A DNA stretch of 64,000 bases, taken from Mobula birostris (taxonomy: Eukaryota). How positions within the stretch are numbered: the stretch's first letter is position 1; each line of letters starts with the position of its first letter. Below the pieces are notes generated by a model, which was given only the letters and a program-made list of their open reading frames with translations, ran no database searches and had not been told where the DNA came from. This document shows positions 12,759-62,723 of this stretch, one piece after another. The position numbers and the translations under genes were made by a program. The stretch lies in the NCBI RefSeq assembly GCF_030028105.1, contig NC_092376.1, forward strand, positions 178,846,080-178,910,079. The letters run 5' to 3'.

Positions 12759-15143
12759 ATGGCGTGTGTACGGAGGTTAAACCTCATTCTAATTGCTTCC
12801 ATTTTCATCTTGTGTGCCCTGGAGAAGATTTCCGGGCAAATCAGTTACTCTATTCAGGAGGAAATGGAAGAAACGTCATTTGTTGGGAATATTGCTGAGG
12901 ATTTGGGATTGAATATACAGCAATTATCAACTCGTAAATTCCGACTGAGCGCTGATGACGGAGGGCGGTATATGAAGGTCAGTTTGAAAAATGGGGTTTT
13001 GTCTACTCGTGAAAAAATCGACCGGGAACGTCTTTGTGGACAAACAGATAGGTGTACGATGCCCTTTGAAATAATACTGGAAAATCCGTTGGAGGTACTT
13101 CACGGCGAGCTGGTGATTCTTGATGCGAATGACAATTCACCCACTTTCCGGGATAGTAGTATTCCGTTGGAGATATCCGAAGCCGTTTCTACCGGAGCAC
13201 GCTTCCGTCTCGAGAGTGCCGAAGACCCCGATATTGGAAGAAATACTGTCGTTGACTACGCAATCAGTTCAAGTGAGTACTTTAGTCTAAAATCACGGAG
13301 AACCGAGGGGGGTATTGTAATTGCCGAATTGCTGTTAGAGAAATCTTTGGACCGGGAATTGCAGTCATCTTTTCAGCTTGTGCTTACGGCGATGGACGGT
13401 GGGACCCCTCAGAGATCCGGAACAGCTCAGATACTCATTACTGTACTAGACTTCAATGATAATTCACCTGTATTCGAGCATGATGTTTACCGGAGTAGCA
13501 TAAGGGAAAATACACCGCGAGGTACATTAGTGATGAAAGTTAAAGCAAATGATTTGGACGAAGGGCTGAATGCAGAGCTGACATATTCCTTCAGTGGACT
13601 TACTTCACAACGGGTGCATGGTGTTTTCAGTTTGATCCCAGAAACTGGAGAGATTGTAACTGAAGGGCCTCTAGATTTTGAAGAAACAAACAGCTACTCA
13701 CTCGATATTCAAGCTGTTGATCATGGGTCTCCTGCGAATACAGGACACGCCAATGTCCAGATTAAAATTATTGACGTGAATGACAACACACCCGAAATAA
13801 AGGTGACGTCAATGACTAACCAAATCCCGGAAAATGCCCCAGCGGGAACTTATATAACATTAATCAATGTTATTGATCGTGATTCTGGAAAAAACGGTCA
13901 AGTGCGCTGCGAGATACAAAAGAATCTACCTTTTACGTTACAAGCATCATCAAATCATTATAAGTTAGTTACACGGGAAAGATTGGACCGTGAATCGGTA
14001 TCTGGGTATGCAATTCATTTTTCAGCCTGGGATTTGGGGTCACCTTCTCTGTCAACAAATACAATCATCCATATTGTAGTTACTGATGTAAACGATAACG
14101 CCCCACGCTTTTCTGAACTATCCTATAACGTATATGTGGCTGAAAATAATGCTCCTGGCACATCCATTTTCACAGTGTCTGCGTCCGATCCTGATCTGGG
14201 GCAGAATTCATCTGTTTCCTATTCCATTCTGGACGATCATTTCCAAAATCTACCAGTGTCCACATACCTCAGCGTTAACTCCATGAACGGCACCATTTAC
14301 GCCTTGCGCTCTTTTGACTATGAGGAATTCAAAACATTTCAGATCCATGTTCAAGCCCGTGACGCTGGGGTTCCCTCACTGAGCAGCAGCGCTACAGTGC
14401 ATGTGATTATTCTGGATCAAAATGACAACGCTCCGGTAATAGTTTCACATTCAGCAGAGAGTGGATCAGCAGCCGCGGAGATCATTCCTCTGTCAGCGGG
14501 TCAGGGGTATTTCGTCACCAGAATTATGGCTACAGATGTAGATTCTGGTCAGAACGCCAGGTTCTTTTACCAAATAGTGAAAGCTACTGACCCAAACTTG
14601 TTTACCATTGGTCAAACTTCCGGGGAAATCAGAACAACGCGCAAAATCATGGAGGGTGATCTTTCCACACAAACGTTGGTCATCATGGTGAAAGACAACG
14701 GGCAGCCAAACCTATCCAGCACGGTTACCCTTCACATCACAATTTTGCAGAATAGCACCGAAACACTCCCCGAGAGCAGTAATTCAGTGAATACTTCCGA
14801 ATATTTGTCAGATCTAAATCTTCATTTATTGATTATTTTCAGCTGCACTTCCATTGTCTTCCTTCTAATTATCATTGTGTTGATCGGGATCAAGTGTAAA
14901 CAGGACAGAAATAACCCCCAAGAGTACATGTCCCCCAGTTACTGTTACAAACATGGAGATATGCTGGATACGTGTAATCGAAGATCTGCAATGGAGGAAA
15001 CTTTACGTTATCCCGGTACTGAGCAGTTAGTCCGTATGCCTGGAGTGCCTCAGTACTCAGTCCGTCTTTCTCCAGAATCAGCGCAAAGCGACTTCCTTTT
15101 CTTGAAGCCATGCGGCCCTCCCACCTCTCAGAATCAATCCTAA
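12759..15143 (+). CDS. Clustered protocadherin (gene 1), 794 aa, single ORF
   Basis: Signal peptide then QISYSIQEE; EC1 IDRERLC-x5-C; five DxNDNxP linkers (6 EC repeats); TM LHLLIIFSCTSIVFLLIIIVLIGI; cytoplasmic YSVRLSPESAQSDFLFLKP. Confidence 0.97.
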   Translation: MACVRRLNLILIASIFILCALEKISGQISYSIQEEMEETSFVGNIAEDLGLNIQQLSTRKFRLSADDGGRYMKVSLKNGVLSTREKIDRERLCGQTDRCTMPFEIILENPLEVLHGELVILDANDNSPTFRDSSIPLEISEAVSTGARFRLESAEDPDIGRNTVVDYAISSSEYFSLKSRRTEGGIVIAELLLEKSLDRELQSSFQLVLTAMDGGTPQRSGTAQILITVLDFNDNSPVFEHDVYRSSIRENTPRGTLVMKVKANDLDEGLNAELTYSFSGLTSQRVHGVFSLIPETGEIVTEGPLDFEETNSYSLDIQAVDHGSPANTGHANVQIKIIDVNDNTPEIKVTSMTNQIPENAPAGTYITLINVIDRDSGKNGQVRCEIQKNLPFTLQASSNHYKLVTRERLDRESVSGYAIHFSAWDLGSPSLSTNTIIHIVVTDVNDNAPRFSELSYNVYVAENNAPGTSIFTVSASDPDLGQNSSVSYSILDDHFQNLPVSTYLSVNSMNGTIYALRSFDYEEFKTFQIHVQARDAGVPSLSSSATVHVIILDQNDNAPVIVSHSAESGSAAAEIIPLSAGQGYFVTRIMATDVDSGQNARFFYQIVKATDPNLFTIGQTSGEIRTTRKIMEGDLSTQTLVIMVKDNGQPNLSSTVTLHITILQNSTETLPESSNSVNTSEYLSDLNLHLLIIFSCTSIVFLLIIIVLIGIKCKQDRNNPQEYMSPSYCYKHGDMLDTCNRRSAMEETLRYPGTEQLVRMPGVPQYSVRLSPESAQSDFLFLKPCGPPTSQNQS

Positions 15144-15243
15144 ATTAGAGATGGGTAAGATCAACGCATGCCCAGTTTAATGTGATTATTTTTGTTTATA
15201 TTTTGGGTTGTGGTACAGTGGGGTAAAGTATTTAAGAACATAT

Positions 15244-16002
15244 AAGTCAAATATAATGGCAGAATATAGCAATACTGGTAAGATTCTTGGCAGTGTGGAG
15301 GATCAGAGGGATCTTGGGGTCCGAATCCATAGGACACTCAAAGCTTCTACACAGGTTGACTGTGGTTACTACGGTGCATTGGCCTTCATGAATCGTGGAT
15401 TGAGTTTAAGAGCCGAGAGGTAATGGTGCAGCTGTATAGGATCCTGGTCGGACCCCACTTGGAGTACTGTGCTCAGTTCTGGTAGCCTCACTACAGGAAG
15501 GTCGTGGAAACCATAGAAAGGGTGCAGAGGAGATTTGCAAGGATGTTGCCTGGATCGGGGAGCAAGCCTTATGCGAATAGGTTGAGTGAACTTGGCCTTT
15601 CCTCCTTGGAGCGACGGAGGGTGACAAGTGACCTGATAGAGGTTTATAAGATGATGAGAGGCATCGATCGTGTGGATAGTCAGAGGCTTTTTTTACAGGG
15701 CTGAAATGGTTGCAACAAGAGGACCGAGGTTTAAGGTGCTGGGGAGTAGGTACAGAGGAGATGTCAAGGGTGAATGTCTTACTCAGAGAGTGGTGAGTGC
15801 GTGAAATGGGCTGCCGGCAACGGTGCTGGCAGGCGGATATGATAGGGTCTTTTAAAAGACTTTTAGATGGGTACATGGAGCTTAGTAAAATAGAGGGCTA
15901 TAGGTAAGCCTAGTAATTTCCAAATAGGGACATGTTCGCCACAACTCCGTGGGCCGAAGGCCCTGTATGGTGCTGTACGTTTTCTATGTTTCCATGTTTC
16001 TA
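15244..16002 (+). mobile_element. CR1 3' fragment inserted 100 bp after the gene 1 stop codon
   Basis: EDQRDLGV, IERVQRRFARM, LERRRV; TTTCTATG tail; left TSD AACATAT at 15237-15243. Confidence 0.9.
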
Positions 16003-16387
16003 GCACATGCTGAGTGCCTGCAGAATATTGTTTTCATTTGACAACCCACATCTCTATTCTGTTTCCGTTTTTATTCTGCGATTTGGTATACCTTCATCAG
16101 GAATTCATTTCAAAGTACTAACGAATTTTTAGCATCTTATTTTTCCAATACGACCACTTTACGTACACATAACAATCAGATACACCATACATTTTTACGC
16201 AACATATTCAATAGCAACCCATTTGTGAGCGCCATTCAGACACAGGTAATACGATCCTCTTCAAGGTTAACATATACCACTCTCAGGTGCTTAGATTGTG
16301 GTTACTGGATATTTTATTTTTGACCACCATAACAATTAGATCCCTCTTCACAAGGGTGCAAGCATGATTTCACAAAGGAAATATGTT
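16003..16387 (-). other. Inverted segment of the gene 1 3' flank / putative 3' UTR
   Basis: The reverse complement aligns with the gene 3 flank ~62820-63210 and the gene 2 flank ~37775-38155, including AATAAA (now TTTATT at 16070-16075 and 16313-16318). Confidence 0.85.
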
Positions 16388-17478
16388 AGAACATAGAAAA
16401 CCTACAGCACAATACAGGCCTTCGGCCAACAAAGCTGTGCCGAACACATCCTTATCTTACAACTCTACCTCGGCTTACCCATAACACTTGATTTTGTTAA
16501 GCTCCGTGAACCAATCCAATAAGCTCTTAAAAGAGCCTAGCGTTTCTACCTCCAGCACCGCCGCCGGCTGCCTATTCTAACGTACTCACCACTCTCTGCG
16601 GAAAAACAATTACCCCTGACATCTCTGTACCTGCTTCCTACCACCTTAAACCTATGCTCTCTCGTGCTAGCCATTTCAGCTCTGGGGGAAAAAAAAAGTT
16701 TCTCTACCTAATCACACAATCAATGCCTCTCATTATCTTGGTCTGATCAGGGTTCTATATAGCTGCAACATTACCTCTCCGCTCCTAAACTCAATCCCAC
16801 GATTGATGAAGTCCAATACACTGGACGCCTTCTTAACCACAGAGTCAACCTGCACAGCTGCTTTGAGTGTCGTATGGACGTGGACCCCAAGATCCCTCTG
16901 ATCCTCCACACTTCCAAGAGTCTTGCCATTAATCGTATATTCTGCCATCATATTTGACCTATCAAAATGAATAAATTCGCACTTATCTGGTTTGAACTCC
17001 ATCTGCCACTTCTCAGCCCAGTTTTGCATTCTATCAATGTTCTGCTGTAATATCTGACAGCACTCCACACTATTCACAACACCTCCAACCTTTGTGCCAT
17101 CAGCAAACTTACTAACCCATCCCTCCAATTCCTCATTCAGGTCATTTGTAAAAATCACTAATAGTAAGTGTCCCAGCACAGATCCCTGAAGCACTCCACT
17201 GGTGACCGACTTCCATGTAGAATATGACCCGTCTACTAACACTCTTTGCCTTCTGTAGGCAAGCCAGTTCTGGATCCACAAAGCAATGCTCCCTTGGATC
17301 CCATGCCTCCTTACTTACTCACTAAGCCTTGCATGGGGTACCTTATCAAATGCCTTGATGAAATCCACATACACTACATCTAATGCTCTTCCTTCATCAA
17401 TGTGTTTTGTCACATCCACAAAAAATTCAATCAGGCTCGTAAGGCACGACCTATCCTTTACAAAGCCATGCTGACTAT
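16388..17478 (-). mobile_element. CR1 3' fragment (RT to tail, internal deletion near 16740)
   Basis: WIQNWLAYRRQRV..QGSVLG..KFADGTKVGG..WQMEF; tail at 16388-16400. Confidence 0.9.
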
Positions 17479-34952: not shown

Positions 34953-35124
34953 CAACAACTACATTTTATGGTTGCACACCATTAAATATATAGGATAACA
35001 GTTCAGCTTTAAGAGCCGAACTTGTAATTGTCGAAAAGAACTGGTTGTGTCGCTGTCTACCAATGAGAAACTCAATTCCACAGATGGATCCATTGCCCCT
35101 CCCACACCCAGAATAAAAGGACAG
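34953..35124 (+). promoter_or_regulatory. Protocadherin gene 2 promoter with CSE
   Basis: 48-bp block at 35022-35069; CGCT at 35051-35054, 255 bp before the ATG; CCAAT, GATCCATTGCCCCTCC and GAATAAAAGGA conserved. Confidence 0.85.
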
Positions 35125-35305: not shown

Positions 35306-37693
35306 ATGGAGTGGGCTTGGAGGTTAAGCTGCACTGTAATTGCGTCCATCTTTATCGTGTGTACCCCGGCTCGGATTTTAGGACAACTTATTTATTCTAT
35401 TCCTGAGGAAATGGGCGAAGGGACAATCATTGGGAATATTGCTCAAGATTTGGGATTGGATGCACTGCAATTGTCAGCTCGCAAATTTCGGCTCAGCTCT
35501 GCTAACGGAGAACGGTACATGAAGGTTAGTTCGGATAATGGGCTTCTATCTATTCGTGAAAAAATCGATAGGGAACGTATTTGTGGGCAAGCAGATATGT
35601 GTACGATACCTTTGGAAATAATACTGGAAAATCCGTTTGAGGTGTATCGTGGGAAAGTGGAGATTCTTGATATAAATGATAACTCTCCTATATTCCGGGA
35701 CAAAAACATTGCCTTGCAAATTTCTGAAGCTATTGCGCCTGGCGTACGTTTTCGACTCAAGAGTGCGGATGATGCTGATACTGGTATGAATACTATCGCG
35801 AATTACACAATCAGTTCGAGTGATTACTTCAGTCTGAAAACACGGAGAACCGAGGAGGGTATTATAATTGCTGAGTTGCTGTTAGAGAAACCTTTGGATC
35901 GAGAGCTACAATCATCCTTTCAACTGGTGCTTACTGCTGAGGATGGTGGGAAACCCCCGAGAACCGAAACAGCTCAGATCCTCATTACTGTACTGGACAT
36001 TAATGATAATCCTCCTGTATTCGAGCATGATGTTTACAGGGCAAGCATTATTGAAAACGCACCGCAAGGAGAGGTAGTGATACAAGTTAAAGCAACTGAT
36101 TTGGACGAAGGGCTGAATGCAGAGGTAACATATTCTTTCAGTGATGTTACTTCCTTGCGAAAAAATCGGGATTTGTTCAGCTTGAACGGAAATACTGGAG
36201 AGATTCGAGTGGAAGGACTGCTAGATTATGAAGAATCTAGTAGTTATTCAATTGATATTCAAGCTGTTGATCACGGTTCACCTGCGATTACGGGACACTC
36301 GAAAGTGCTAATCAAGGTCATTGACATGAATGACAACGCACCCGAAATAAAAATGACGTCAGCCACCAAGCAAGTCCCAGAAAATGCTTCGCCGGGAACA
36401 TTAATCACCTTGATCGATGTTATCGATCGAGATTCTGGGAAGAACGGTCAAGTGCGCTGCGAAGTACGTCAGAAGGTCCCCTTTCTACTGCAAACATCAT
36501 CTAATCATTACAAATTAATTACAAGTGAAACGCTGGACCGTGAAACGTTATCAGAGTACAAAATATTCGTTTCAGCTTGGGATTTAGGGTCCCCATCACT
36601 TGCAACAAATAAAACCATCCATATTGTAATTACTGATATCAATGATAACGCCCCAAGCTTTGCTGAACAACCCTACAACGTATATGTGACTGAAAATTGC
36701 TCTCCTGGCGTCTCTGTCTTTACAGTAACAGCGTCAGATCCCGATCTAGAACAGAATTCCTATGTTTCTTATTCCATTCTGGACAATTACATTCAAAACT
36801 TACCACTGTCTACTTACCTGAGCATTAACTCTATGAACGGCACCGTTTACGCTTTGCGATCCTTTGACTATGAGGAACTGAAAAGTTTTCAGTTCCATGT
36901 TCAGGCCCGTGACGCTGGAGTACCACCGTTGAGCAGCAGCGCTACTGTGAATGTCATCATCCTGGATCAAAATGACAACGCACCAGTGATTGTTTCACCT
37001 TCAGAGCATGGTGAGTCATCAGCCGTGGAAACCCTGCCCCAGTCAGCGGCTCAGGGGTACTTGGTAACAAAGATAATAGCCACTGATGCAGATTCTGGTC
37101 AAAACGGGCGGCTATTTTACCAAATGAGGAAAGCTACTGATACAAGTTTGTTTATCATTGGTCAAACGTCTGGCGAAATCAGAACAGCGCGCCAAATCTT
37201 GCAGCAAGATCCCACGACACAAACTTTGGTAATCTTGGTGAAAGACAACGGGCAGCCAAACCTATCTAGCACAGTTACCCTTCACATCACAATTTTGCGG
37301 AATAGCACCGAAACTCTCACCGAAAGCAGTAATTTATTGAAGAAGCCTGAATATATATCTGATCTAAATCTTTATTTATTGGTTATTTTCAGTTGCACCT
37401 CCATTATCTTTCTTTTGATTATCATTCTGTTGATCGCAATCAAGTGTAAACAGGACAGAAATATGAACCAAGAGTATACATCTCCCAGTTATTGTTACAC
37501 ACGTGGAGATATGCAGGACACGTTTAATCAAAAAAGTGCAATGGAGGAAACTTTACGCTATTCTGGTACAGACCAGGTAGTCCGTGTGCCAGGTCTTCCA
37601 CAGTACTCGGTTTGTCTGTCTCCAGAATCAGCGAAAAGCGACTTCGTTTTTTTGAAGCCATGCCGCCCTCCCACCTCTCAGACTCAACCCTAG
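35306..37693 (+). CDS. Clustered protocadherin (gene 2), 795 aa, single ORF
   Basis: Signal peptide, QLIYSIPEE, IDRERIC-x5-C, 6 EC repeats, TM, YSVCLSPESAKSDFVFLKP tail. Confidence 0.97.
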   Translation: MEWAWRLSCTVIASIFIVCTPARILGQLIYSIPEEMGEGTIIGNIAQDLGLDALQLSARKFRLSSANGERYMKVSSDNGLLSIREKIDRERICGQADMCTIPLEIILENPFEVYRGKVEILDINDNSPIFRDKNIALQISEAIAPGVRFRLKSADDADTGMNTIANYTISSSDYFSLKTRRTEEGIIIAELLLEKPLDRELQSSFQLVLTAEDGGKPPRTETAQILITVLDINDNPPVFEHDVYRASIIENAPQGEVVIQVKATDLDEGLNAEVTYSFSDVTSLRKNRDLFSLNGNTGEIRVEGLLDYEESSSYSIDIQAVDHGSPAITGHSKVLIKVIDMNDNAPEIKMTSATKQVPENASPGTLITLIDVIDRDSGKNGQVRCEVRQKVPFLLQTSSNHYKLITSETLDRETLSEYKIFVSAWDLGSPSLATNKTIHIVITDINDNAPSFAEQPYNVYVTENCSPGVSVFTVTASDPDLEQNSYVSYSILDNYIQNLPLSTYLSINSMNGTVYALRSFDYEELKSFQFHVQARDAGVPPLSSSATVNVIILDQNDNAPVIVSPSEHGESSAVETLPQSAAQGYLVTKIIATDADSGQNGRLFYQMRKATDTSLFIIGQTSGEIRTARQILQQDPTTQTLVILVKDNGQPNLSSTVTLHITILRNSTETLTESSNLLKKPEYISDLNLYLLVIFSCTSIIFLLIIILLIAIKCKQDRNMNQEYTSPSYCYTRGDMQDTFNQKSAMEETLRYSGTDQVVRVPGLPQYSVCLSPESAKSDFVFLKPCRPPTSQTQP

Positions 37694-38086: not shown

Positions 38087-38092
38087 AATAAA
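38087..38092 (+). terminator. Putative poly(A) signal of gene 2
   Basis: AATAAA ~394 bp after the stop, in CAGAATAAAAA context conserved in gene 3 (63132) and, inverted, in gene 1 (16070-16075). Confidence 0.5.
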
Positions 38093-42120: not shown

Positions 42121-43630
42121 TGATGTCTGAATCAAGGCTGACCATCCTTGTCTGTCCTTATTTTGGCGTGTTTTCTTCTCTGAATATTTTTTATGACTTA
42201 TGTATTTGAGAAACTTGTCCTTTGGACTACCAGGTCCACAAGGACCTTAATGTTTATATATACTCATCCCACCCCCTTGCATTAATTTCATATCTCTTTA
42301 TCGCATGATCATTCAGCGATTTATAGAATGGCGCTTGAATATTATTACCACCTGCTGTTGACAATTCATCAATAGAACTAGGTTATGAAACTCACAACGC
42401 AAATCTTAGTTAATCCAAGCTCGCATTTTACTGACTACGCACGAACAATAACCCTACTATGTTGACCTCAGGCAGATAATCTTAGAACATGAAATATATT
42501 GTTCACTCTGTACCACTACTCACTCATGTCTCTTTTCCAATGTATAACACCGATATAGGGGAACTCCGTTGGCCAGACGATCAAGCCTTTCCTCTCCCAG
42601 TCCCTGTCATGACCGTTGTTCTTTGCGGTGGCGAATCGTCGAAGATGTTGTTACTTTGTATTCGAAGCCTCTGATTTTATATTAATTCCTTACTAGTTCA
42701 AATGCTGCATTTCTCTGTTATTAGAAATGAGTCATCTGACTGACCTATAACACCTTCTTGGCTCTGCTCCAAGCCAACATCCATTCATTGCCCTCTTCTT
42801 CAAGTGGCTTTTGGTAACTTATGGCTATTAATGGGTCTTTGTTTTAAACCAGTTTCTAAACCAGCGAGAAACTCACATATTTTAGGGCAGACACAGGCCT
42901 GTCCAATTACTATCCTGAGCGTTATATCTAACCAAAGAACACCTCGCAAATAGCTTCTTATAAACTGTATTTGGAATTTATTTCTAGTCCAGCAGATTAC
43001 CTGGAGTATCTTTGTGTTTACTTTAAAATATTGATTCAGCCAAGCAAAACCAGCTCACAAAATGGAGGATGCAGAGGAGCTTCATAAAATGGAAACCTCC
43101 ATTCGTTCGACTTCATGGCAGGAACACAATTGACTTGTTGTATGAAAACTCATTCCTCTTCAGTTTTCAAAGTAAATATAAAAGCTTGATGCAGAAATCT
43201 GTAAACTCATAATACAAAATTGAAGTAATTTAAGGCATTTAAATTTATTGTCCAGAATACAGAGATAATGCAGGGTTTTGACTTAATTGGGAACAAATTG
43301 AACTGGCATTTGGTCAAAATGAACCTGAATAAAGGGACGTTTGTGAGTTTGATGTGTGCATGGTGGTCGTGTTTCTTATCAGACAGGATCTTGCACAATA
43401 TCAGAAAAGAAATAGTGACCAAATATTGTTAAAATGGGCGGGGAATTCCGAAGTATTTATCTTCTAAATTTTCACAGCAGTATTTTGTTATTGTTGATAC
43501 CTCAATAATTCGCATTTCCACTTAACACTTATAACTTATTCAATTAATTTAAGCATTCTTGCTGGTGTCATTTTTGAAGTTTTTCCATTTTAGCACGTTT
43601 TCAATTATAATTGCGCTCATGTTTTAGATT

Positions 43631-44787
43631 GTCAAGTGCGCTGTGAGATAGAAAACAACGCCCACTGTATGCTGCAAACATCGAATCATTATAAATCAAT
43701 TACAAGTGAAAAGCTGTAGCGTGGAATGGTGACTGCGCCTAAAATACTGGTTTCCGCCTGCGATCTGAGGTTAACTTCACTAATAACGAATAAAAACCAT
43801 CGATATAGCTGTTAATGATGTCAGCGATACCTCCCTGCACATTGCTGAGCCCTCCTAAATTATTGTAACTGAAAACAGCATCCTGGCGCTATCATCCTGC
43901 AACTGCCACCCATGCTGATTTGGAGCAGAATTCCACTTCATTCTGGACAATTTCGTGAAAGACCTGCCAGGTTGACTTACCTCAACATTATCTCAATATT
44001 TGCGCGATGGGATCCTTTTAATATGAGGAATTTATCATCTTCCAGATACATGTTCAAGCCTATGAAGCAGGAGTGTCCCCGATGTGGTAATTGTTCGACC
44101 TTTAACACGGAGTGGATCATCGGCAGATGAGATAATTCCCCAGTCAGTGGGTCAGCGGAACGTCGTTACCAAAATCATAGCCATAGATGCAGCTTTTGGA
44201 CGGAACGAGCGGAGCTTTTACCAAATGTTGAAAGCAACTGATGCTAGATTGTTCATCATTGAGCTAACTTCTGGAGAAATCAGAACAGCGCAGAAAACCT
44301 CTGAGGCGGATCCTGCCAGGCAAATTTTGGTCACCTTGGGGAAAGACAAGGGGCAACGACACCTATCCAGCACGGTTACAATTCATATTACAGTTTTGGA
44401 GAATAACACAGGAAAAGTCACGGAAAGTGGTTACTCAGTGAAGAATGCCAAACATTGCTCTGATCATAATCTTTACTTATTAGTTACTTTCAGTTGTATT
44501 TCCACTGTCTTCCTTCAAATTATGAGCTGTTGTTCGGCATCAAGTGTACACAGGACAGAGATATTACCGAAGGATATACTTCCACAGTTACTGTTACACA
44601 CGTCAAGAAATTCAGGACAAGTTTAATTGAAGACCCGCAATGGAGGAAACATTACGCCATTCCGGGACTGGACAGGTAGTCCGCATGCAAGAACTGCCTC
44701 AATGCTCAACTTGTCCCCAGAATCAGCCAAAAGCGATTTCTTCTGATTGAAGCCTTGCGGTCTTCTACCTCTCAGGCCCAATAGTAA
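43631..44787 (+). pseudogene. Protocadherin pseudogene, 3' half (EC4 to stop)
   Basis: Begins GTCAAGTGCGCTGTGAG (QVRCE). The ORF remnant 44084-44626 has EC6 TSGEIRT..LSSTVTIHITVL and a TM. It ends SPESAKSDF..KPCG..SQAQ**. Multiple stops, deletions and frameshifts. Confidence 0.92.
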
Positions 44788-44829
44788 ATTCCGAGGATGT
44801 TTAAGATCAAGAAATGCCCCCCTTAGAGT

Positions 44830-46573: not shown

Positions 46574-46860
46574 GACCCTCCGCGGGGCAACGGCAAGAGG
46601 GCCTGACTTACCCCACGGAGGCGAGGACAAGACACGACAAAACACGACCCCCCGCGGGCCAACGGCAAGACGGCCTCACTTACCCCACAGAGGCCAGGAC
46701 AAGACAAGACAAGACACGACTCCCCGCGGGGCAACGGCAAGACGGCCTGACTTAACCCACTGAGGGAGGACAGGACAAGACAAGACATGACTCCCCGCGG
46801 GGCAACAGCAAGACGGCCTGACTTACCCCACGGAGGCGAGGAGAAGACAAGACAAGACCA
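46574..46860. repeat. 72-bp minisatellite, 4 copies
   Basis: Units start at 46574, 46646, 46718 and 46789 (GACYCCCCGCGGGGCAACGGCAAGACGGCCTGACTTACCCCAC...). Confidence 0.9.
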
Positions 46861-46997
46861 GACAGTACCTATCTAGCTCCGGTGATGGAACTAGACCGAA
46901 GTGCAGGCAGGGGCTGCAGACGAGGTCTAGAGGCGGGAGGGGCAGAGAAGGGATTCAGACGGAGTGGGGAGGGGGGTAGGGCAGGAATTACAGACCC

Positions 46998-47670: not shown

Positions 47671-48095
47671 CCTCCGCGTAGTGCCGAGCTCTCGACTCGG
47701 CCCGGGAACAGTAGACAGAGGCTCTTGATTCTCTCCGGCGGGTTAACTGACGGACCCACCTTGATGATGAAACTTTGCAGGTTTGCTTCGGCGAGGTAAC
47801 TGGACAGGGTTGCTCCGCTGAGGAAAGGCGAATTACCGGCACTCGCTTCGGGCGGAGACGAGGCTTGCGCCGGCCAGATGACATTGGCACGCCGTGACTT
47901 TGCAGACGCTCCAGCACCGAACGGCTGAAAGCCGGAGACTATAAACTACAATTTCATCCGAGTGTTAAATGTCTCTAATCATCAAAGTCGAGGGACAGGG
48001 GAAAACAGGGAATCAACAGTCCGGATCGTAAAATAAAGAAGTTAAATTTATAGGGGTCCCAATCCGGACCATGACACCCTCATAATTTTAAATAC

Positions 48096-51087
48096 TGTGG
48101 CGGCCCGTACACGCGGAACTCGAACCGCCATCGGGAGCCGCGGGCAGATACGCGGTGGCGTGTTTGGAGCTACCCGCTCGGGGAGGACCTTCCCGGGGCA
48201 GTCTGATGTCACGTCCACTCCGCGGGTCGCAGTGGCCCATGGGAGGGAAGATTTAAGCGCGCGATTTTGAATCAGTAAAGGCATTTTGAGGTTAGCTCTC
48301 TCTGCCTCCGTGTGTTACATTGGTGACCCCGACGTTCCAGACGGCATCTGGAGACGGCGACTCAGCGACCAGCTATGAGTTCTGCAACTCTACAGTGCGG
48401 TCTTTCTGAAGCTCCCGACTTTCTGGGCCACTCAACCCCACGTTTGGTTCGAGCAGGCTGAAGCCTGGTTCAATATCAGAGATATTTTACAGCCGACGCC
48501 ATGCGGTACTACTACGTGGTCAGCACGCTCGACAAAGAGACGGCAGGCCGGATCATCGACTTTCCTACGCCAGCCACCAACGGAGGACAGGTACACTAAG
48601 CTTAAGGCCCTCCTGATCCGTACCTTAGGACTCTCCCGCCCCGAACGGGCCGCGCGGATCCTACACTTGGATGGCCTGGGCGACCGCACGCCATCCGAGC
48701 TCATGAATGATATGCTAGCGCTCATGGACGGCCATAAGCCGTGCCTTTTATTTGAGCAGTTGCTCCTCGCGCAAATGCCAGAGGATATTCGCCTCCTCCT
48801 CGCCAGTGAGGATTTCAGCGACCCACACAGGGTCGTGACTAAAGCAGACATCCTTTGGCAGAGCAAGCAACGTGGAGCACCCTCCACTGGCCTAGCCACG
48901 ATCGCGCGCCCCAAATCCCAGGCCCCGCAACCAAAGCCGTCGAGACCCACGAGGGAAAAAGACCAAAGTTCCGAACAATGGTGTTTCTATCACCAGAGAT
49001 GGGGCTCAGGCGCGCGCCGCTGCCGTCCACATTGTGCTTTTCCGGGAAAAACCGGGGCCAGCCGTCGCTAATGGCTACGACGACTGGCCACCGAGACATC
49101 CTCCTGTACCGCTGGGACCGACACTCCGGGCGGTGCTTCCTGGTAGACACCGGGGCCGAAGTCAGCTAACTCCCCCTCCCCCCAACGAACATGGAAACTC
49201 GTAACGCGGTCTCAGGCCCCGAACTCAGCGCTGTAAATGGCACCAGTATTCGGACGTACGGCCCGCGAACTATCTCACTGCATTTCGTGTCCAGCCGTTT
49301 CACTTGGACTTTCACGTTGGAGGCGGTGGCACAGCAACTATTAGGGACAGATTTCCTACGAGCCAAATGCCTCGTGGTCGACCTTAAAGGCCGGCATTTT
49401 ATCCACGCCAAGACGTTCCAGACTTTGCAGCTCGGAGAAGCCAAGCTACCGGCCCTCCACCTGGATTCCGTGACCCCCGCGGTAACGAATTCGCAAGGGT
49501 GTTGGCGGAATTCCCCTCCGTAGTCACCCTGCAGTTCTCCACGGCCGACCCCAAGCACGGCGTGCAGCACAACCCCACGCAAGGACCGCCGCTGCACGCC
49601 CGAGCCTGCAGGCTCCCACCCGACAAGCTACACCTCGCCAAGGAGGAGTTCCGTAAGATGGAAGAGATGGAAATCATACATCGTTCAGACAGCCCGTGGG
49701 CATCCCCGCTGCACATGCTGCCCAAGTCCGCAGGAGGAAGGAGGCCCTGCGGAGACTACAGAAGGCTCAGCGACGCCACAACCGCCGAGAGATACCCGGT
49801 ACCCGACATCTAGGACTTCACGGCGAACCTGCACGGAGCAACCACCTTCTCGAAAATCGACCTGGTAAGGCGACACCATCAGATCCCAGTGCATCCCGAC
49901 GACGTGCCCAAGACAGCCCTCAACACCCCGTTCGGCTTGTTAGAATTCCCGAGGATGCCTTTCGGTCTCAAGAATGCAGCCCAAACTTTCCAAAGGCTCA
50001 TGGACTCGGTGGGACGCGACTTGGATTTCGTTTTCATTTACTTGGACGATATCCTGGTGGCCAGCAGTTCGCACCAAGAGTACGTGGCACATTTGCGCCA
50101 GGTCTGCCAACGCATGAGTGACCAAGGACTGGCAATCCATCCGGCAAAGTGCCAGTTCGGGCTGACGGAGATCGACTTCTTGGGCCACAGAGTCAACTGA
50201 CATGGCGCTGTTCCCCTACCGGATAAGGTCCAGACCATCCGCCAGTTCCCCAAGCCCAGCACGGTCAAGGGCCTGCAGGAATTCGTAGGGATAGTCAACT
50301 TTTATCATCAGTTCGTGCGGGCGGCGGCACGCATCATGAGACCCTTGTTCAGACTGATGGCTGGCAAGGCCAAAGAAGTGGCATGGGACGCGGAGTCCAC
50401 GGAGGCGTTCGAACAGGTCAAGGTGGCGCTGGTAAAGTCGGCCCTCCTGGTGCACCCGCGAGTCAATGTACCCACGGCACTCACAGTCGACGCTTCCGAC
50501 ACGGCAGTCGGCAGAGTCCTAGAGCAGCTAGTCGAGGACCAGTGGCGACCTCTCACTTTCTTCGGCCGGCACCTACGGCCACCAGAGGTGAAGTACAGCG
50601 CTTTCCACAGAGAGTTGCTAGCGCTCTACCTGGCTGTCCGGCATTTCCGGTACTTTCTTGAGGGAAGGGTCGGCAGCAGAGGCACCCGTCCTTTATTTCA
50701 GAATTCACCACCGATGTCCAGCACATCGCAGGGAAGAACAAAGTCGTCGCCGACACACTGTCTCTCCCCTGCCTCCACTCATTAGTCATATCGTCCTGAG
50801 GAATAGACTATGCAGCACTGGCGGAAGCACGACGGTCGGACACCGATATCCCGGCTTACCGCACCGCCCTTTCGGGACTCCAGTTGGAGGACGTCTCCAT
50901 CGGCCCGGCAGTGGATCGATTCCTGTGCGATGTGTCTACCGGCAACCCCCGACCCGTGGTACCAGCAGCATGGAGGCTCCGGCTGTTCGACACACTGCAC
51001 GACCCGGCCCACCCGTCCATCCGGGCATTCTCCAAGCTCGTGGCGGACAGATTCGTCTGGCACGATTTGTGCAACCAGGCCTGACCC
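48096..51087 (+). mobile_element. 3'-truncated Ty3/Gypsy LTR retrotransposon (5' LTR, PBS, gag, PR, RT, RNase H, start of integrase)
   Basis: LTR TG..CA at 48096-48319; gag LKLPTFW..WFEQAE and WCFYHQRWG..RRC; protease FLVDTGAEVS; RT WASPLH, PFGLKNAAQTFQR, YLDD; RNase H TVDASD, YSAFHRELLA; integrase H-x3-H; stops and frameshifts. Confidence 0.93.
48321..48335 (+). promoter_or_regulatory. Primer-binding site complementary to the tRNA-Trp 3' end
   Basis: TGGTGACCCCGACGT, separated by one base from the LTR-terminal CA. Confidence 0.85.
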
Positions 51088-52390
51088 TTGGAATACCTTC
51101 CAACAGCTTTTCCTGTACTGATGTCAGGCTCACTGGCCTTTAATTTCTTTGTTTATTATTACAGCCATTATGAAACAGCAGTACAGCATGAGCTATTCTC
51201 CAATCCTCCGGTATTTCACCTGTCGCGGTGTGATTTAAATATATCTGCTAGGATCCTGAAAATATCTGCACTTGCTTCCCGTCGGGTCCGAGGGAACACC
51301 TTGTCAAGCCCTGGGCATTTCTCCTCTCTAATCTGCCTCAAAACATCAAACACCTCGTGCTCTGTTATCTGTATAGTGTCCACGAAGTCGATACCATTTT
51401 GACTTACTTGTATACGCTCTGTGTCTTTCTCCTGAGTAAATGCTGATGCAATAAAATGCATTGAGACCTCCTGCATCTCTTTTGGCTACATGCAAGGATT
51501 ACCATTCTGATCTTCCAGATGACCAACTTTGTCCCTTGCAATTTTTTGCACTTAAGGCATCTGTAGAATCTCTTCGGATTCTCCTTCATCTTGTCGGCTA
51601 AGGCATCCTTATGCTTTTTTTTTGGCCCTCCCCATTTCTTTCTTGTGTTACCTTGCATTTCATTACTCCATAAGCACCTATTGTTTTCTTATCTGTCTGT
51701 ACCTGCAATAGTCCTCTTTTTTTCCTTAACCAGGTACTCAATATCTCTTGAAAACCAGGGTTTCCTGAACCTATACTGTTTAACTTTTTCCGACAGACAT
51801 GTACAAGCTTGGTGCTCTCAAAATTTCACTTTTGAAAGTCTCCCTTTGGAAGAAAAAAATACTGTCCAAAAAACACTTTCTAGATCATTTATCACACCGT
51901 AAGAACTGCCCGTTGTCCAATTTCGAATTTCAACCTCTGGATAAGACCTATTTTTTTACAATATTTACTTTGTAACCAATTGCATTGTGGTCACTGGATG
52001 CAAAGTGTTCGCCTCCACGCAGCTTATGTCAGCTGCCCTATCCCATTCTCTAACAGAAGATCGAGTAACACACATAGTTTCTCGATGGGATTTCAACACC
52101 CTGATTAAGGAGACTTTTCTCAACTCAGTCTATCCCATCCAGTCCTTTGACAGTATGGGAGTCCCAGTCAATATGTTTAAAGTTAAAATCGCCCACAACA
52201 GCAACCTTATTTATCTCGCAACTGTCTGTGATCTCTCTCCAATTTTGCTCCATTAAATCCCTCTGCTGTCAGATGGTCTGCAATATAGCCCCATTAGCGT
52301 AATCACATCTTTCCTATGACTCAGTTCTGCCCATAAGGCCTCACTAGTTTTCCGTTCTGTCCTGACTGAGCACTGTCGCAATATCTTCCT
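51088..52390 (-). mobile_element. CR1 ORF2 fragment (endonuclease to RT linker)
   Basis: KENPKRFY, FASAFTQE-like, KCPGLD fragments. Confidence 0.75.
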
Positions 52391-55945: not shown

Positions 55946-55974
55946 ACGTGACAGGAGGCCTAGGGAGAATACTG

Positions 55975-56350: not shown

Positions 56351-56399
56351 ACTAACGAGCCTGGTACATTACGAGTCGCAGTGAGAGGGTTAAGTGATC

Positions 56400-56562
56400 A
56401 ACAACTACATTCTATGAGTAGAAACAAAGTGTTTAGAGTAGCAGCACAGATTTAATAACTGAAATGCAGTTATCGAAAGAACTTGTGTCGATGTCTGTTA
56501 ATGAAAAGATCAATTCCACCGATCGATTCATTGCCCCCCCCCCAAACCCTGAATAAAAAGAT
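56400..56562 (+). promoter_or_regulatory. Decayed protocadherin promoter (CSE mutated)
   Basis: Colinear with the three intact promoters, but CGCT is CGAT (56489-56492) and CCAAT is TTAAT. Confidence 0.8.
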
Positions 56563-56733
56563 AGACGACGAAAGAGTGTGCGTTTAGATTTTGGGGTTAA
56601 GCTGAGGCCAAAATAATCTCCTATCTCTTTCGTTTCGGTATTGATCTGCATCCGTTAATATTTTGTAGTAAAAATGCTGTGATGGATTAATTGAGCAGAG
56701 GCCTTGTTTTGTAAATTACCTGCATGCGGAACA

Positions 56734-57750
56734 AAGCTGTGTGCATCGAGGTGAAGATTTACTGCAACTGCTTCCATTTGTGTCGTATGTGCCCCTATAG
56801 CAATTCCGGGCAAATTCCCGAGAAAATGGAAATAGAGACATTTGCTGGGAATATCTGTCAATAATTGCAATTGAATGTACGGCAATTGTTAGCTCGCAAT
56901 TTTCGGCCGACCTCTGATGACCGAGGACGTTAAATGAAGGCTAGTTTGGCTAATTTATTTTTGTTCATTCTGGAAGAATCGACAGAGAACTTGATTGTGT
57001 ACCGTACCCTTTGAAATAATACTGCAAAATCCGTTCGAGGTGTTTCGCGGGGAAGTGGAGATTTTTGATGTGAATTACAATGCGCCCATTTCCCGGGAAA
57101 GCGGAATTGTTTTGCAAATATCTGAAGCCATTCTGTCTCAAGAGGGCGTAAGACACCAACATTATTCGAGTAAGTACTTTAGTCTCAAAATAGGGAGAAC
57201 CGAGGAGGGTATTGTAATTGCTGCACTGCTCTTAGACAAATCTTTGGACCGAGAGCTGCAGTCATCCTTTCAACTATTGCTTACGACTACAGACGCTGGG
57301 AGTCTCTGGAAACCACAGCACATATCCTCGTTCGAGTCTGGATTTATTATATTGTCCACCGGTATTCGAACATAATGTTTACCGGGGCAGTGTAAGCGAG
57401 AAAGCACATAAAGGCATCGTCATTATGAAAGTTAAAACAAATAAGAGTGGAATCTCGAGGTGGCATATTCCTTTAAGGGACTAACTTCAGAAAAATGTAC
57501 ATGGTGTGTTCAGTTGGACCCAGAAACCGGAGTGTTTGGTGTCGAAAGGCCTGCAAATTTGAAGAAACAAAGACCTATACACTCGATATTAAAGCTGTTG
57601 ATAACGGGATTACGGGACATTTCAACTTGCTGATCCAGGCCATTGAAATGAATGACTACACAACCGAGATAAAAGTAAGATAAATCATGAAGCCAATCCC
57701 GGAAAAAGTTGCGCCGGTAATTTGAATCGTACTTTAAAAGTTAGTGACGA
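56734..57750 (+). pseudogene. Protocadherin pseudogene, 5' half (signal peptide to start of EC4)
   Basis: ATG replaced by AAG at 56734-56736. Remnants VPFEIILQNPFEVFRGEVEIFDVN, LLDKSLDRELQSSFQL and YTLDIKAVD..EMND. Stops and deletions. Confidence 0.92.
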
Positions 57751-59989: not shown

Positions 59990-60160
59990 ATAACTACATT
60001 TTATGGTTGTACAGTAACAAATATGTAGAATAACAGTACAGCTTTAAGAACTCCAGTTGTAATTGTCGAAAAGAACTGGTTGTGTCGCTGTCTGCCAATG
60101 AGAAAGTCAATTCCATAGATGGATCCATTGCCCCTCCCACACCGAGAATAAAAGGATAGA
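59990..60160 (+). promoter_or_regulatory. Protocadherin gene 3 promoter with CSE
   Basis: 48-bp block at 60057-60104 (1 mismatch to the other two); CGCT at 60086-60089, 253 bp before the ATG. Confidence 0.85.
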
Positions 60161-60338: not shown

Positions 60339-62723
60339 ATGGCGTGCGTATCGAGGTTAAGCTTCACTGCAATTGCTTCCATTTTCATCGTGTGTGCTCT
60401 GGATCGAATTTCAGGGCAAATTAGTTATTCTGTTCCTGAAGAAATGAAAGAAGGGTCATTTGTTGGGAATATCGCTCAGGATTTGGGATTAAGTGCACTG
60501 CAATTGTCAGCTCGCAAATTTCAGCTGAGCCCTGATGACGGAGGGCGGTACATGAAGGTTAGTTTCGATAATGGGGTTTTGTCTATTTTTGAAAGGATCG
60601 ACCGGGAACGTATTTGTGGGCAGACGGATATATGTACTATCCCATTCGAAATAATGTTAGAAAATCCCCTGGAAGTGCTTCACGGGGAACTGGTGATTCT
60701 TGATGTGAATGACAACTCACCCACTTTCCGGGAGAGCCGTATTGAATTCCAGATATCTGAAGCCATTTCACCTGGAGTACGATTCCGTCTCGAGAGCGCG
60801 GAAGACCCCGACATTGGAATAAATAATGTTGTCGACTACGCAATCAGTTCGAGTGAGTACTTCAGTCTAAAATCACGGAGAACCGATGAGGGTATTGTAA
60901 TAGCAGAGTTGCTGTTAGAGAAATCTTTGGATAGAGAATTACGGTCATCTTTTCAGCTGGTGCTTACGGCTACGGATGGCGGAATCCCTCAGAGATCGGG
61001 AACAGCCCAGATTCTCATTAATGTAGTCGATATCAATGATAATCCACCTGTATTCGAGAAAGATGTTTACAAATTCAGTATAAGTGAAAACGCACCGAAA
61101 AGCAGCTTGCTGATGAAAGTTAAAGCAAATGATTTGGACGAAGGGCTGAATGCTGATTTGACATATTCCTTCAGTGGACTTACTTTACAAAGGGTGCATG
61201 GTGTATTCAGTTTGGTCCCAGAAACTGGAGAGATTGTAATTGAGGGGCATTTAGATTTTGAAGAATCAAACAGTTATTCACTAGATATTCAAGCTGTTGA
61301 TCACGGGTCTCCTGCGATTACAGGACACACCAAAGTGTTGATTAAAGTCATTGATGTTAATGACAACGCACCCGAGATAAAAGTGAAATCACTCACGAAC
61401 CAAATTCCGGAAAATGCCCCGCCAGGAACTTTCATAACACTAATCAATGTTATCGATCGTGACTCTGGACAGAATGGTCAAGTTAACTGTGAGATACCAA
61501 GGGACCTCCCTTTCATGCTGCAAGTATCATCCACTAATTATAAGTTAATTGTAAGTGAAAAGTTGGACCGTGAAACGGTGTCGGAGTATACAATAAACGT
61601 TTCAGCCTGGGATTTTGGGTCACCTTCCCTGTCAACAAATAAAACGATCTATATTACAGTAACTGATATAAATGATAATGCCCCACGCTTTGCTGAACTT
61701 GCTTACAACGTATATGTGGCCGAAAATAATGCTCCTGGCGCTTCTATTTTCACAGTGACAGCGTCCGATACTGATCTGGAGCAGAATTCATATGTATCTT
61801 ACTCCATACTGGACAATCATATCCAAAACTTGCCAGTGTCAACATACATCAACATTAACTACATGAACGGCACCATTTACGCCTTGCGCTCTTTTGACTA
61901 TGAGGAACTAAAAAGTTTTAAGATCCATGTGCAAGCCCGTGACGCTGGAGTGCCCCCACTAAGCAGCAGGGCTACGGTGCATGTGATCATCCTGGATCAA
62001 AATGACAACGCTCCGGTAATCGTTTCACCCTCAGAACAGAGTGGATCAGCAGCCTTGGAAATTCTGCCCCAATCAGCAGGTCAGGGGTACTTGGTCACCA
62101 ATATAATGGCCACTGATGTAGACTCTGGTCAGAACGCGCGTCTCTTTTACCATATGGTGAAAGCTACTGATCCCAGTTTATTTATCATAGGTCAGACGTC
62201 TGGTGAAATCAGAACACAACGCAAAATCGTGCAGGCTGATCTCACCACACAAACTTTGGTTATCTTGGTGAAAGATAATGGGCAGCCAAGCCTATCCAGC
62301 ACGGTTACTATTCACATTACAATTTTGCAGAATACATCCGAAACTCTCACCAAAAACAGTAATTTAGTGAATAATCCCGAATACTTATCTGACATTAATC
62401 TTTATTTATTGGTTATTTTCAGTTGCACTTCTATTGTCTTTCTTCTGATTATCATCGTGCTCATTGGGATCAAGTGTAAACAGGACAGAAATAAACCCCA
62501 AGAGTATACTTCGCCCAGTTATTGTTACGAACGTGAAAATATGCAGGACACATTTAATAGAAGATCTGCATTGGAGGAAACGTTACGTTATCCTGGCACT
62601 GACCAGGTAGGACGTGTCCCAGGGCTGCCACAGTACTCGGTTTGTCTGTCTCCAGAATCAGCGAAAAGCGACTTCCTTTTCTTGAAGCCGTGCGGCCCCG
62701 CCATCTTTCAGGCGCAATCCTAA
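60339..62723 (+). CDS. Clustered protocadherin (gene 3), 794 aa, single ORF
   Basis: Signal peptide, QISYSVPEE, IDRERIC-x5-C, 6 EC repeats, TM, YSVCLSPESAKSDFLFLKP tail. Confidence 0.97.
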   Translation: MACVSRLSFTAIASIFIVCALDRISGQISYSVPEEMKEGSFVGNIAQDLGLSALQLSARKFQLSPDDGGRYMKVSFDNGVLSIFERIDRERICGQTDICTIPFEIMLENPLEVLHGELVILDVNDNSPTFRESRIEFQISEAISPGVRFRLESAEDPDIGINNVVDYAISSSEYFSLKSRRTDEGIVIAELLLEKSLDRELRSSFQLVLTATDGGIPQRSGTAQILINVVDINDNPPVFEKDVYKFSISENAPKSSLLMKVKANDLDEGLNADLTYSFSGLTLQRVHGVFSLVPETGEIVIEGHLDFEESNSYSLDIQAVDHGSPAITGHTKVLIKVIDVNDNAPEIKVKSLTNQIPENAPPGTFITLINVIDRDSGQNGQVNCEIPRDLPFMLQVSSTNYKLIVSEKLDRETVSEYTINVSAWDFGSPSLSTNKTIYITVTDINDNAPRFAELAYNVYVAENNAPGASIFTVTASDTDLEQNSYVSYSILDNHIQNLPVSTYININYMNGTIYALRSFDYEELKSFKIHVQARDAGVPPLSSRATVHVIILDQNDNAPVIVSPSEQSGSAALEILPQSAGQGYLVTNIMATDVDSGQNARLFYHMVKATDPSLFIIGQTSGEIRTQRKIVQADLTTQTLVILVKDNGQPSLSSTVTIHITILQNTSETLTKNSNLVNNPEYLSDINLYLLVIFSCTSIVFLLIIIVLIGIKCKQDRNKPQEYTSPSYCYERENMQDTFNRRSALEETLRYPGTDQVGRVPGLPQYSVCLSPESAKSDFLFLKPCGPAIFQAQS

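What the first reader, a model, noticed from the sequence alone, without database searches (positions are those of the whole stretch)
12759..62723. Array of apparently self-contained (constant-exon-free) clustered protocadherins in a probable cartilaginous fish
Seen: all three genes and the 3' pseudogene stop at the same codon (SQNQS*, SQTQP*, FQAQS*, SQAQ**). There is no conserved GT between the FLKP motif and the stop, and a conserved AATAAA lies ~400 bp downstream within a conserved ~1-kb 3' flank. Established: alpha and gamma variable exons splice to shared constant exons, whereas mammalian Pcdh-beta genes are single-exon. Inference: this is a beta-like architecture, possibly independently evolved, giving neuronal barcode receptors without the common cytoplasmic domain.
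Basis: partly seen in the sequence, partly recalled or inferred. Interest (0 to 1): 0.7.

Follow-up and report, generated by a model that had tools for sequence, protein, structure and literature searches.

The report
Tail-less epsilon protocadherins of a ray
Three neighbouring nerve-cell recognition genes of a ray end in a stop codon before the point where their neighbours join a shared tail, so they most likely make short, one-exon proteins; they belong to the epsilon group already named in elephant shark, which likely lost its tail separately from the similar beta genes of mammals.

Summary
The core observation holds. Three intact protocadherin reading frames (794-795 aa) and a 3' pseudogene stop at the homologous codon, with no shared donor after FLKP. 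The AATAAA claim holds for two of three genes; in the first that block is inverted between LINE fragments.

The genes lie in a 2.4-Mb cluster with three terminal constant exons (delta, mu, probable nu). They form a clade (SH 100) with elephant-shark Pcdh-epsilon, whose deposited proteins already lack a tail. A strong in-frame donor occurs in 1 of 25 epsilon frames against 42 of 42 other variable exons. No constant-exon-like sequence was found in the 450 kb before the first mu gene. None of 120 epsilon-type database proteins carries a constant tail. Contigs from probable RNA runs of relatives continue through the stop into the flank.

Independent origin from Pcdh-beta is likely (cluster position, AU tests against gamma-type genes), but no named beta was in my trees. 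This is a ray example of a subcluster described in 2008. I could not read that paper; that it already calls epsilon constant-exon-free is recall plus indirect evidence.

The parts
12505..12522 (+). Promoter element of gene 1 (CGCT box plus CCAAT; CSE-like, predicted CTCF site)
   Evidence: Motif found by Gibbs sampling over 63 cluster promoters; coordinates; CSE described in PMC7811963
12759..15143 (+). Gene 1: intact Pcdh-epsilon variable exon, 794 aa, about 83-aa cytoplasmic part, ends SQNQS*
15242..15990 (.). LINE-like fragments inserted about 100 nt after the gene 1 stop
   Evidence: Repeated elsewhere in the window and an inverted match (75-81%) to 16390-16962; LINE label rests on RT-like frames of such repeats
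16005..16383 (-). Inverted piece of gene 1's 3' flank carrying the poly(A) hexamer on the wrong strand (TTTATT at 16070)
   Evidence: Minus-strand match to flanks of L011, L010, gene 2 and gene 3
16390..16962 (.). Second LINE-like fragment, opposite orientation; the homologous flank resumes at 17476
35047..35064 (+). Promoter element of gene 2 (CSE-like)
35306..37693 (+). Gene 2: intact Pcdh-epsilon variable exon, 795 aa, ends SQTQP*
38087..38092 (+). AATAAA, candidate poly(A) signal of gene 2 (+394)
   Evidence: use not shown
43628..44810 (+). Pseudogene, 3' half (codons about 380-794), frameshifted, ends SQAQ** at 44782-44787
56394..57728 (+).
60082..60099 (+). Promoter element of gene 3 (CSE-like)
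60339..62723 (+). Gene 3: intact Pcdh-epsilon variable exon, 794 aa, ends FQAQS*
62604..62612 (+). In-frame donor-like CAG|GTAGGA inside gene 3, 45 codons after the membrane helix; the only strong one among 25 epsilon frames
   Evidence: use not shown
63132..63137 (+). AATAAA, candidate poly(A) signal of gene 3 (+409)
   Evidence: use not shown

Best explanation
These three genes are ray members of the cartilaginous-fish Pcdh-epsilon subcluster; each has its own promoter element and a stop codon ahead of the position where neighbouring subclusters splice, so each most likely makes a one-exon receptor without a shared cytoplasmic tail, predicted to act as a neuronal self-recognition tag much as mammalian Pcdh-beta does. 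SHOWN: intact frames, a CGCT-box element 250 nt upstream, stops 75-93 codons after the membrane helix where 40 of 42 other variable exons have a donor at 94-135 codons, and membership of the epsilon clade. INFERRED from mouse clustered protocadherins: stochastic CTCF/cohesin-dependent promoter choice, homophilic EC1-EC4 trans binding, and EC5-EC6 cis dimers. The EC6 position equivalent to gammaB7 V560 is hydrophobic in 24 of 25 epsilon frames and never Arg/Lys, so epsilon is predicted to be carrier-like and to signal through cis partners (delta, mu, nu) that do carry tails. INFERRED origin: a duplicated variable exon lying downstream of the delta constant exons gained a stop before its donor and was then amplified, separately from the beta array of lobe-finned fishes and tetrapods.
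For: Cluster map: variable exons from C8 177.81 to 180.10 Mb; exactly three PF15974 hits in the genome, at 177.851, 179.641 and 180.168 Mb; the second matches elephant-shark mu tails; mu exons 1 and 2 lie at 179.459 and 179.465 Mb. Donors: best in-frame donor of at least 8 bits in 1 of 25 epsilon frames against 42 of 42 others, Fisher p 3e-17, paralogues not independent. Scan of 178.846-179.296 Mb (no N): best hit E 0.81, while the controls were found (mu exon 1 at E 4e-7, mu exon 2 at 8e-14, all three terminal exons). Database: 0 of 120 proteins whose best local match is epsilon carry a mu, delta or nu tail; one search lists such proteins from 21 named chondrichthyan species; 0 of 21 mu-tail proteins have an epsilon variable part. 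Trees: 24 ray epsilon plus 10 of 11 named elephant-shark epsilon form one clade, SH 100; it lies outside a clade (95) of mu, nu and 25 bony alpha/gamma-type rows; AU rejects epsilon plus gamma-type units, p 0.012 and 0.027. Contigs of probable RNA runs (two studies, related organisms): all 7 loose ends shown at the 3' end of the frame continue like a paralogue's genomic sequence, 6 of them past the stop, and none resembles mu exon 1; compared by eye. Promoters. EC6 residue: with PMC8901172.
Against: No brain long-read or raw RNA data: the runs are only guessed to be RNA, are contigs from other species, and 8 further loose ends were not shown; unspliced contigs could be pre-mRNA or DNA. Gene 3 has one strong in-frame donor. 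Donor-like sites sit in the epsilon 3' flanks at the position of real donors, modestly above background (mean percentile 0.23; 5 of 25 at 7 bits or more). The epsilon1 orthologue keeps a strong donor and database models splice it to a small private exon, so epsilon is not uniformly single-exon. A diverged private constant exon would escape the scan: the delta profile saw a candidate nu first exon only at E 0.36. The donor matrix uses recalled frequencies and the 8-bit cut was set after seeing the scores. Database models depend on RNA depth. No named Pcdh-beta was in the trees, the AU groups were chosen after seeing the tree, and the search was quick LG+G4. PMC12337331 shows that cis-interface residues alone do not decide surface delivery. 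Gene 1 lacks the usual sense poly(A) signal.
Confidence: 0.87

Rival explanations
1. Epsilon genes are mainly single-exon, but a minority of transcripts splice from weak donors (the in-frame CAG|GT 45 codons after the membrane helix, or donor-like sites 45-100 nt after the stop) to the mu constant exons. This would give chimeric epsilon-mu receptors or decay-targeted messages. It can coexist with the best explanation.
For: Gene 3's CAG|GTAGGA is in the same phase as mu exon 1. Weaker CAG|GTA sites occur in 6 paralogues. 3' flank donor-like sites are modestly enriched at the ancestral position. The epsilon1 orthologue keeps a donor.
Against: The residues at the in-frame site are not kept in skates and sharks (R-V, E-I, E-M). 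Contigs bridge that place with no joint there. 0 of 120 database proteins are chimeric. Mu exon 1 is 549 kb away, beyond nine mu exons with strong donors.
Confidence: 0.15
2. Most transcripts splice to a shared constant region (mu, or an unrecognised epsilon-specific one), and the stop codons are intronic read-through as at the ends of mu and nu exons.
For: Alpha and gamma, and here mu and nu, work this way. A diverged exon could escape the scan.
Against: No conserved donor before the stop. The stop position is conserved across sharks and rays (most end 10-25 residues after the conserved motif), whereas mu and nu read-through lengths vary widely. Elephant-shark epsilon proteins have no shared constant domain. 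Read-through contigs exist.
Confidence: 0.04
3. Epsilon and Pcdh-beta are orthologous: one tail-less array in the ancestral jawed vertebrate, so this is a beta family member and not a convergence.
For: Same architecture. A non-Arg EC6 residue, as in gamma and beta. No beta was sampled in my trees.
Against: Epsilon lies directly after delta and before mu, whereas beta lies between alpha and gamma. AU rejects epsilon plus gamma-type units, and beta is thought to derive from gamma (PMC7811963). Among solved EC1-4 constructs of clustered types, beta8 and beta6 score lowest against gene 2: 330 and 326 bits, against 344-421 for alpha and gamma. PMC2764143 states that epsilon has no orthologue in bony vertebrates.
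Confidence: 0.1

Closest known systems
Elephant shark (Callorhinchus milii) Pcdh-epsilon subcluster (Yu et al. 2008 PNAS, not readable here; proteins ABV59319 and ABV59323-ABV59336 seen; cited in PMC2764143 and PMC4978886)
   Same: One clade with epsilon5-13 and epsilon18 (SH 100). Same place in the delta-epsilon-mu-nu order. 796-827 aa proteins with no constant domain. An epsilon1 orthologue heads the array.
   Different: The window's genes belong to an 11-gene ray expansion with no one-to-one elephant-shark orthologue. Their ends are shorter (12 residues after the conserved motif in the typical case). Genes are spaced by 20-30 kb of retroelements, with many pseudogenes.
Pcdh-beta of mammals, anole and coelacanth (PMC7811963, PMC2764143)
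   Same: Tandem one-exon genes, each with a CGCT-box promoter element; six cadherin repeats, membrane helix and short variable cytoplasmic domain; no constant exons; non-Arg residue at the V560-equivalent position.
   Different: Position in the cluster (after delta, not between alpha and gamma). Not grouped with gamma-type genes in trees. Lowest similarity among clustered EC1-4 structures. Beta is reported absent from elephant shark.
Pcdh-mu and probable Pcdh-nu subclusters of the same locus (and Pcdh-alpha/gamma)
   Same: Variable-exon layout; promoter CCAAT element (mu also keeps the CGCT box).
   Different: They keep a strong in-frame donor (40 of 40 frames by score) and have downstream constant exons; epsilon stops before that point.

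Membership tests
Clustered protocadherins | Tandem large exons each coding signal peptide, six cadherin repeats, membrane helix and variable cytoplasmic domain | tested here: met
Clustered protocadherins | Own promoter per exon with a CGCT-box element at a fixed distance upstream | tested here: met
   Element at -250 to -255 in all three genes; CTCF binding itself not tested
Clustered protocadherins | Stochastic neuronal expression and homophilic trans binding | not testable with these tools
   Inferred from mouse work (PMC7811963)
Pcdh-epsilon (chondrichthyan) | Clade with named elephant-shark epsilon proteins | tested here: met
   SH 100 with 10 of 11 named epsilon proteins; epsilon1 falls outside, and its joining is not rejected (AU p 0.066)
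Pcdh-epsilon (chondrichthyan) | Position between the delta constant region and the mu subcluster | tested here: met
Pcdh-epsilon (chondrichthyan) | No constant exons or constant cytoplasmic domain (recalled from Yu 2008; seen in the deposited proteins) | tested here: met
   at genomic and database level; transcript proof is limited to probable-RNA contigs of relatives
Pcdh-beta | Single-exon genes without constant domain | tested here: met
Pcdh-beta | Location between alpha and gamma subclusters | tested here: not met
   The array lies between delta and mu; a second tailed subcluster follows mu
Pcdh-beta | Orthology by phylogeny with named beta genes | tested here: inconclusive
   No named beta obtained. 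Indirect: AU rejects epsilon plus gamma-type units; beta structures score lowest
Pcdh-alpha/gamma/mu/nu type (spliced) | Conserved in-frame donor at the end of the variable exon | tested here: not met
   1 of 25 against 42 of 42

The most novel reading that the evidence does not exclude
Jawed vertebrates built a tail-less 'carrier' protocadherin array twice: beta from gamma in lobe-finned fishes, and epsilon in cartilaginous fishes. Epsilon arose from a variable exon stranded behind the delta constant exons that gained a stop 15-35 codons before its donor. The steps are still visible: epsilon1 keeps the donor and splices to a private 36-nt coding exon conserved in sharks and rays, and the other epsilon genes keep decayed donors in their 3' untranslated regions. 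Shedding the shared tail would then be a repeated, selected way to add identity tags without adding signalling tails.
Probability: 0.4. Interest if true: 0.5.

Novelty: new member of a known kind. Interest (0 to 1): 0.27.

Why it matters
As a discovery it matters little, because the epsilon subcluster has been named since 2008. What this window adds is breadth. The tail-less array is kept across rays, skates, sharks and chimaera, has carrier-like EC6 residues, and most likely arose apart from Pcdh-beta. That gives a second natural case for an open question, namely why beta-type receptors do without the constant domain and how they arose (PMC7811963 lists two unresolved scenarios). It is testable with skate or catshark brain RNA and cell-aggregation assays.

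Tried and rejected
Primary paper: Yu et al. 2008 was not held under DOI, PMC id or PubMed id; Goodman 2017 was not held. In ten literature searches and the passages read I saw no explicit sentence that epsilon lacks constant exons. The anole paper lists constant regions only for alpha, gamma, delta, mu and nu. The single 'Pcdh-epsilon' hit is an unrelated naming of non-clustered PCDH15/16/21.

No run on record as RNA holds the stretch: no RNA holder listed. The first read-laying was swamped by a repeat. Lack of contig cover beyond about 470 nt after the stop is not used as evidence.

The search of 50% representatives, meant to fetch beta genes, returned Fat-like and fused models; 23 bony units were cut from them, none named beta. 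The two P0440 units in the tree are poorly aligned, mis-joined models.

Global-alignment identity of flanks is inflated: gene 1's disrupted flank still scores about 0.70, so I used BLAST identities instead. Rejected: the flank as evidence of selection; the epsilon1 mini-exon as an epsilon constant exon (it lies upstream of all other epsilon genes); the C-terminal HEFKQ/H of elephant-shark epsilon6-13 as a constant exon (epsilon5, 18 and 1 end differently).

Rows dropped: L015 (broken, 349 aa) from donor counts; L015 and L016 from trees; proteins outside 600-1400 aa from the tail count; three frames without a called start and promoters shorter than 450 nt from the motif search. Look-ups of earlier findings returned nothing relevant. 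No structure or complex was predicted.

Full report
Observation. The window holds three intact protocadherin reading frames on the + strand: 12759-15143, 35306-37693 and 60339-62723 (794, 795, 794 aa). Pfam finds an N-terminal Cadherin_2 domain, five Cadherin stretches and the variable cytoplasmic domain, but no Cadherin_tail. Two broken copies lie between them: a 3' half at 43628-44810 and a 5' half with promoter homology at 56394-57728. The stops are homologous, and no GT is shared between FLKP and the stop. The poly(A) claim holds for genes 2 and 3 only (38087, 63132). In gene 1 the matching block is inverted between two oppositely oriented LINE-like fragments, which suggests recombination between them; an assembly error is not excluded. 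Flank identity between genes 2 and 3 (67%) is close to their fourfold-site identity (61.5%), so the flank is not evidence of selection.

Context. The window is G000:C8:178846080-178910079 in a 4.0-Gb genome. The nearest named proteins are from rays (Mobula, Hemitrygon, Hypanus). Searches with EC1 and with the membrane-proximal part map a cluster from 177.81 to 180.10 Mb. From fetched loci I recovered 68 long frames there plus one Pcdh10-like outlier on C5. PF15974 finds three terminal constant exons in the whole genome. The first, at 177.851 Mb, matches database models of the single delta-like gene. The second, at 179.641 Mb, retrieves elephant-shark proteins named mu1, mu3, mu5, mu6 and mu7; its first two exons are at 179.459 and 179.465 Mb with canonical AG/GT ends. 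The third, at 180.168 Mb, I label nu by position only; no named nu protein was retrieved. The order is delta, delta constant, epsilon1 orthologue, 26 epsilon frames (24 intact, L015 and L016 broken) plus fragments, 9 mu, mu constant, 31 probable nu, nu constant. This fits the four subclusters reported for elephant shark (passages of PMC2764143 and PMC4978886).

Identity. The membrane-proximal region of gene 2 retrieved 94 proteins, 89 of them ranked above the first bony-fish hit. They come from 21 named chondrichthyan species and include elephant-shark epsilon8, 9 and 18. Cluster look-ups added epsilon1, 5, 6, 7 and 10-13. These deposited proteins are 796-852 aa and have no constant domain. 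In a 104-row FastTree, 24 ray epsilon frames, 10 of 11 named epsilon proteins and 8 other shark and skate rows form a clade with SH 100; epsilon1 pairs with ray locus L002 elsewhere. The window's three genes belong to an 11-gene ray expansion.

Do they splice? Four tests. First, donors: scored with a recalled frequency matrix, the best in-frame donor after the membrane helix reaches 8 bits in 42 of 42 delta, epsilon1, mu and nu frames and in 1 of 25 epsilon frames. For 40 of the 42 it is the terminal-type site at 94-135 codons after the helix; two nu frames look damaged near the end. Epsilon frames stop at 75-93 codons. The cut-off was chosen after seeing the scores and paralogues are not independent. 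The exception is gene 3's CAG|GTAGGA, which is not kept in skates or sharks at the protein level. Second, the 450 kb from the window's start to the first mu exon (no N) gave no constant-exon-like hit (best E 0.81), while the same profiles found mu exons 1 and 2 and all three terminal exons; a diverged private exon could be missed. Third, 0 of 120 stored database proteins with an epsilon best match carry a constant tail, although the search admitted lengths up to 1392 aa; and 0 of 21 mu-tail proteins have an epsilon front: 19 match mu best, and 2 (elephant-shark mu1 and mu3) match L002 best. Fourth, contigs from four runs of related organisms (two studies; RNA only guessed) were laid on gene 3's end. 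The 7 loose ends shown at 2769-2900 of L059 continue like the genomic sequence of paralogues (L010, L012, L006, L014, gene 2, L016 twice), six of them past the stop, and none resembles mu exon 1; I compared these by eye. Eight further loose ends were not shown. This is supporting, not decisive.

How it most likely works. Each gene has a CGCT-box plus CCAAT element about 250 nt upstream. In mouse the CGCT element binds CTCF and underlies promoter choice (PMC7811963 passages), and such an element is reported for elephant shark (PMC2926608 passage). By inference, neurons switch on a few epsilon promoters and each makes a one-exon mRNA ending in its own flank. The protein would bind its own isoform in trans through EC1-EC4 and dimerise in cis through EC5-EC6. 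In mouse, Arg at position 560 marks alpha isoforms impaired on the EC6-only side (PMC8901172 passages). Using the published L555/K558/V560 spacing, epsilon has Met, Ile, Leu or Val there in 24 of 25 frames and Thr in one, while alpha-type bony units have Arg or Lys. Epsilon is thus predicted to be carrier-like and to borrow signalling from tailed partners. PMC12337331 (passages) warns that interface residues alone do not set surface delivery. None of these functional steps was tested here.

Relation to beta. The architecture is that of Pcdh-beta (PMC7811963), but membership fails on position and is unsupported by trees. In a 61-row IQ-TREE quick tree, epsilon (100) lies outside a clade (95) holding mu, nu and 25 bony alpha/gamma-type rows. 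AU tests reject epsilon with the gammaA/B-like units (p 0.012) and with all gamma-type units (p 0.027); the groups were picked after seeing the tree, and the alpha/gamma labels of cut units are mine. No named beta sequence could be obtained. Among solved EC1-4 constructs of clustered types, beta8 and beta6 are the weakest matches to gene 2. PMC2764143 states that epsilon has no bony-vertebrate orthologue and that beta is absent from elephant shark. Independent origin is therefore likely, not proven.

Traces of origin. The epsilon1 orthologue (L002) keeps a strong donor. Database models from several rays and sharks end in a short shared peptide that maps to a 36-nt coding exon about 850 nt downstream, with a proper acceptor. 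It lies upstream of all other epsilon genes and cannot serve them. In the other epsilon genes, the window 99-117 codons after the membrane helix falls in the 3' flank and holds donor-like sites somewhat above background (mean percentile 0.23 over 25 genes, 0.26 over 8 clades). That is a weak hint of decayed donors. Joining epsilon1 to the rest is not rejected (AU p 0.066).

Novelty and literature. The subcluster was named by Yu et al. 2008, which I could not read. That it describes epsilon as lacking constant exons is my recall, backed by the deposited proteins and by the anole paper's list of constant regions, which omits epsilon. Ten searches showed no study of the cluster in rays among the listings; subscription papers and supplements were not seen and may cover it. 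Papers seen: PMC2764143, PMC4978886, PMC2926608, PMC1852091, PMC7766791, PMC8901172 and PMC12337331 as passages; PMC7811963 as passages and section 7.

Verdict. The finding is a new member of a known kind: interest 0.27. The bolder case, a twice-evolved tail-less carrier array with visible intermediate steps, has probability about 0.4 and would merit 0.5.

Noticed in passing
window 15242-17475: Gene 1's 3' flank is split by two oppositely oriented LINE-like fragments with the 380 nt between them inverted, which turns the poly(A) hexamer to the other strand; the next sense AATAAA is at 16970.
   Followed up: partly
L002:740-3421 and L061 (G000:C8 178.225-178.228 Mb): The epsilon1 orthologue keeps a strong donor and has a private 36-nt coding terminal exon; the same short ending appears in database models of several rays and sharks. 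It is followed by a 420-kb stretch with no protocadherin hit, which I did not fetch.
   Followed up: partly
3' flanks of epsilon genes, e.g. window 15220-15228 and 37758-37766: Donor-like sites 45-100 nt after the stop, at the distance from the membrane helix where mu and nu exons splice; only modest enrichment.
   Followed up: partly
probable nu genes, L034-L055: Most nu promoters keep CCAAT but have lost the CGCT box that epsilon and mu promoters keep, and most nu proteins have Ser or Thr at the V560-equivalent EC6 position.
   Followed up: no
L055:7322-9646 and L049:713-3376: The last nu exon has a stop 135 nt before its donor-like site; another nu exon appears frameshifted near its end.
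   Followed up: no
L016 and L015 (C8 179.043 and 179.022 Mb); L012: L016 has one stop in EC1 here, while a 3124-nt contig of a related organism matches its 3' end; L015 is broken; L012 stops four codons early, and a relative's contig shows the same early stop.
   Followed up: partly
window 43628-44810; C8 178.957, 179.002 and 179.038 Mb: Several pseudogene remnants begin near codon 350-385, which suggests that gene-plus-pseudogene units were duplicated together.
   Followed up: no
window 46450-51150: GC-rich Gypsy-like LTR retroelement with broken RT and RNase H frames, preceded by 58-, 72- and 36-nt tandem repeats, the last with 18.5 copies.
   Followed up: partly
C8 179.465-179.641 Mb: The mu constant exons 2 and 3 are separated by an intron of about 176 kb.
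   Followed up: no
L033 (C8 179.668 Mb): The first gene after the mu constant region is delta-like in sequence and branches near the base of the cluster, apart from the other probable nu genes.
   Followed up: no
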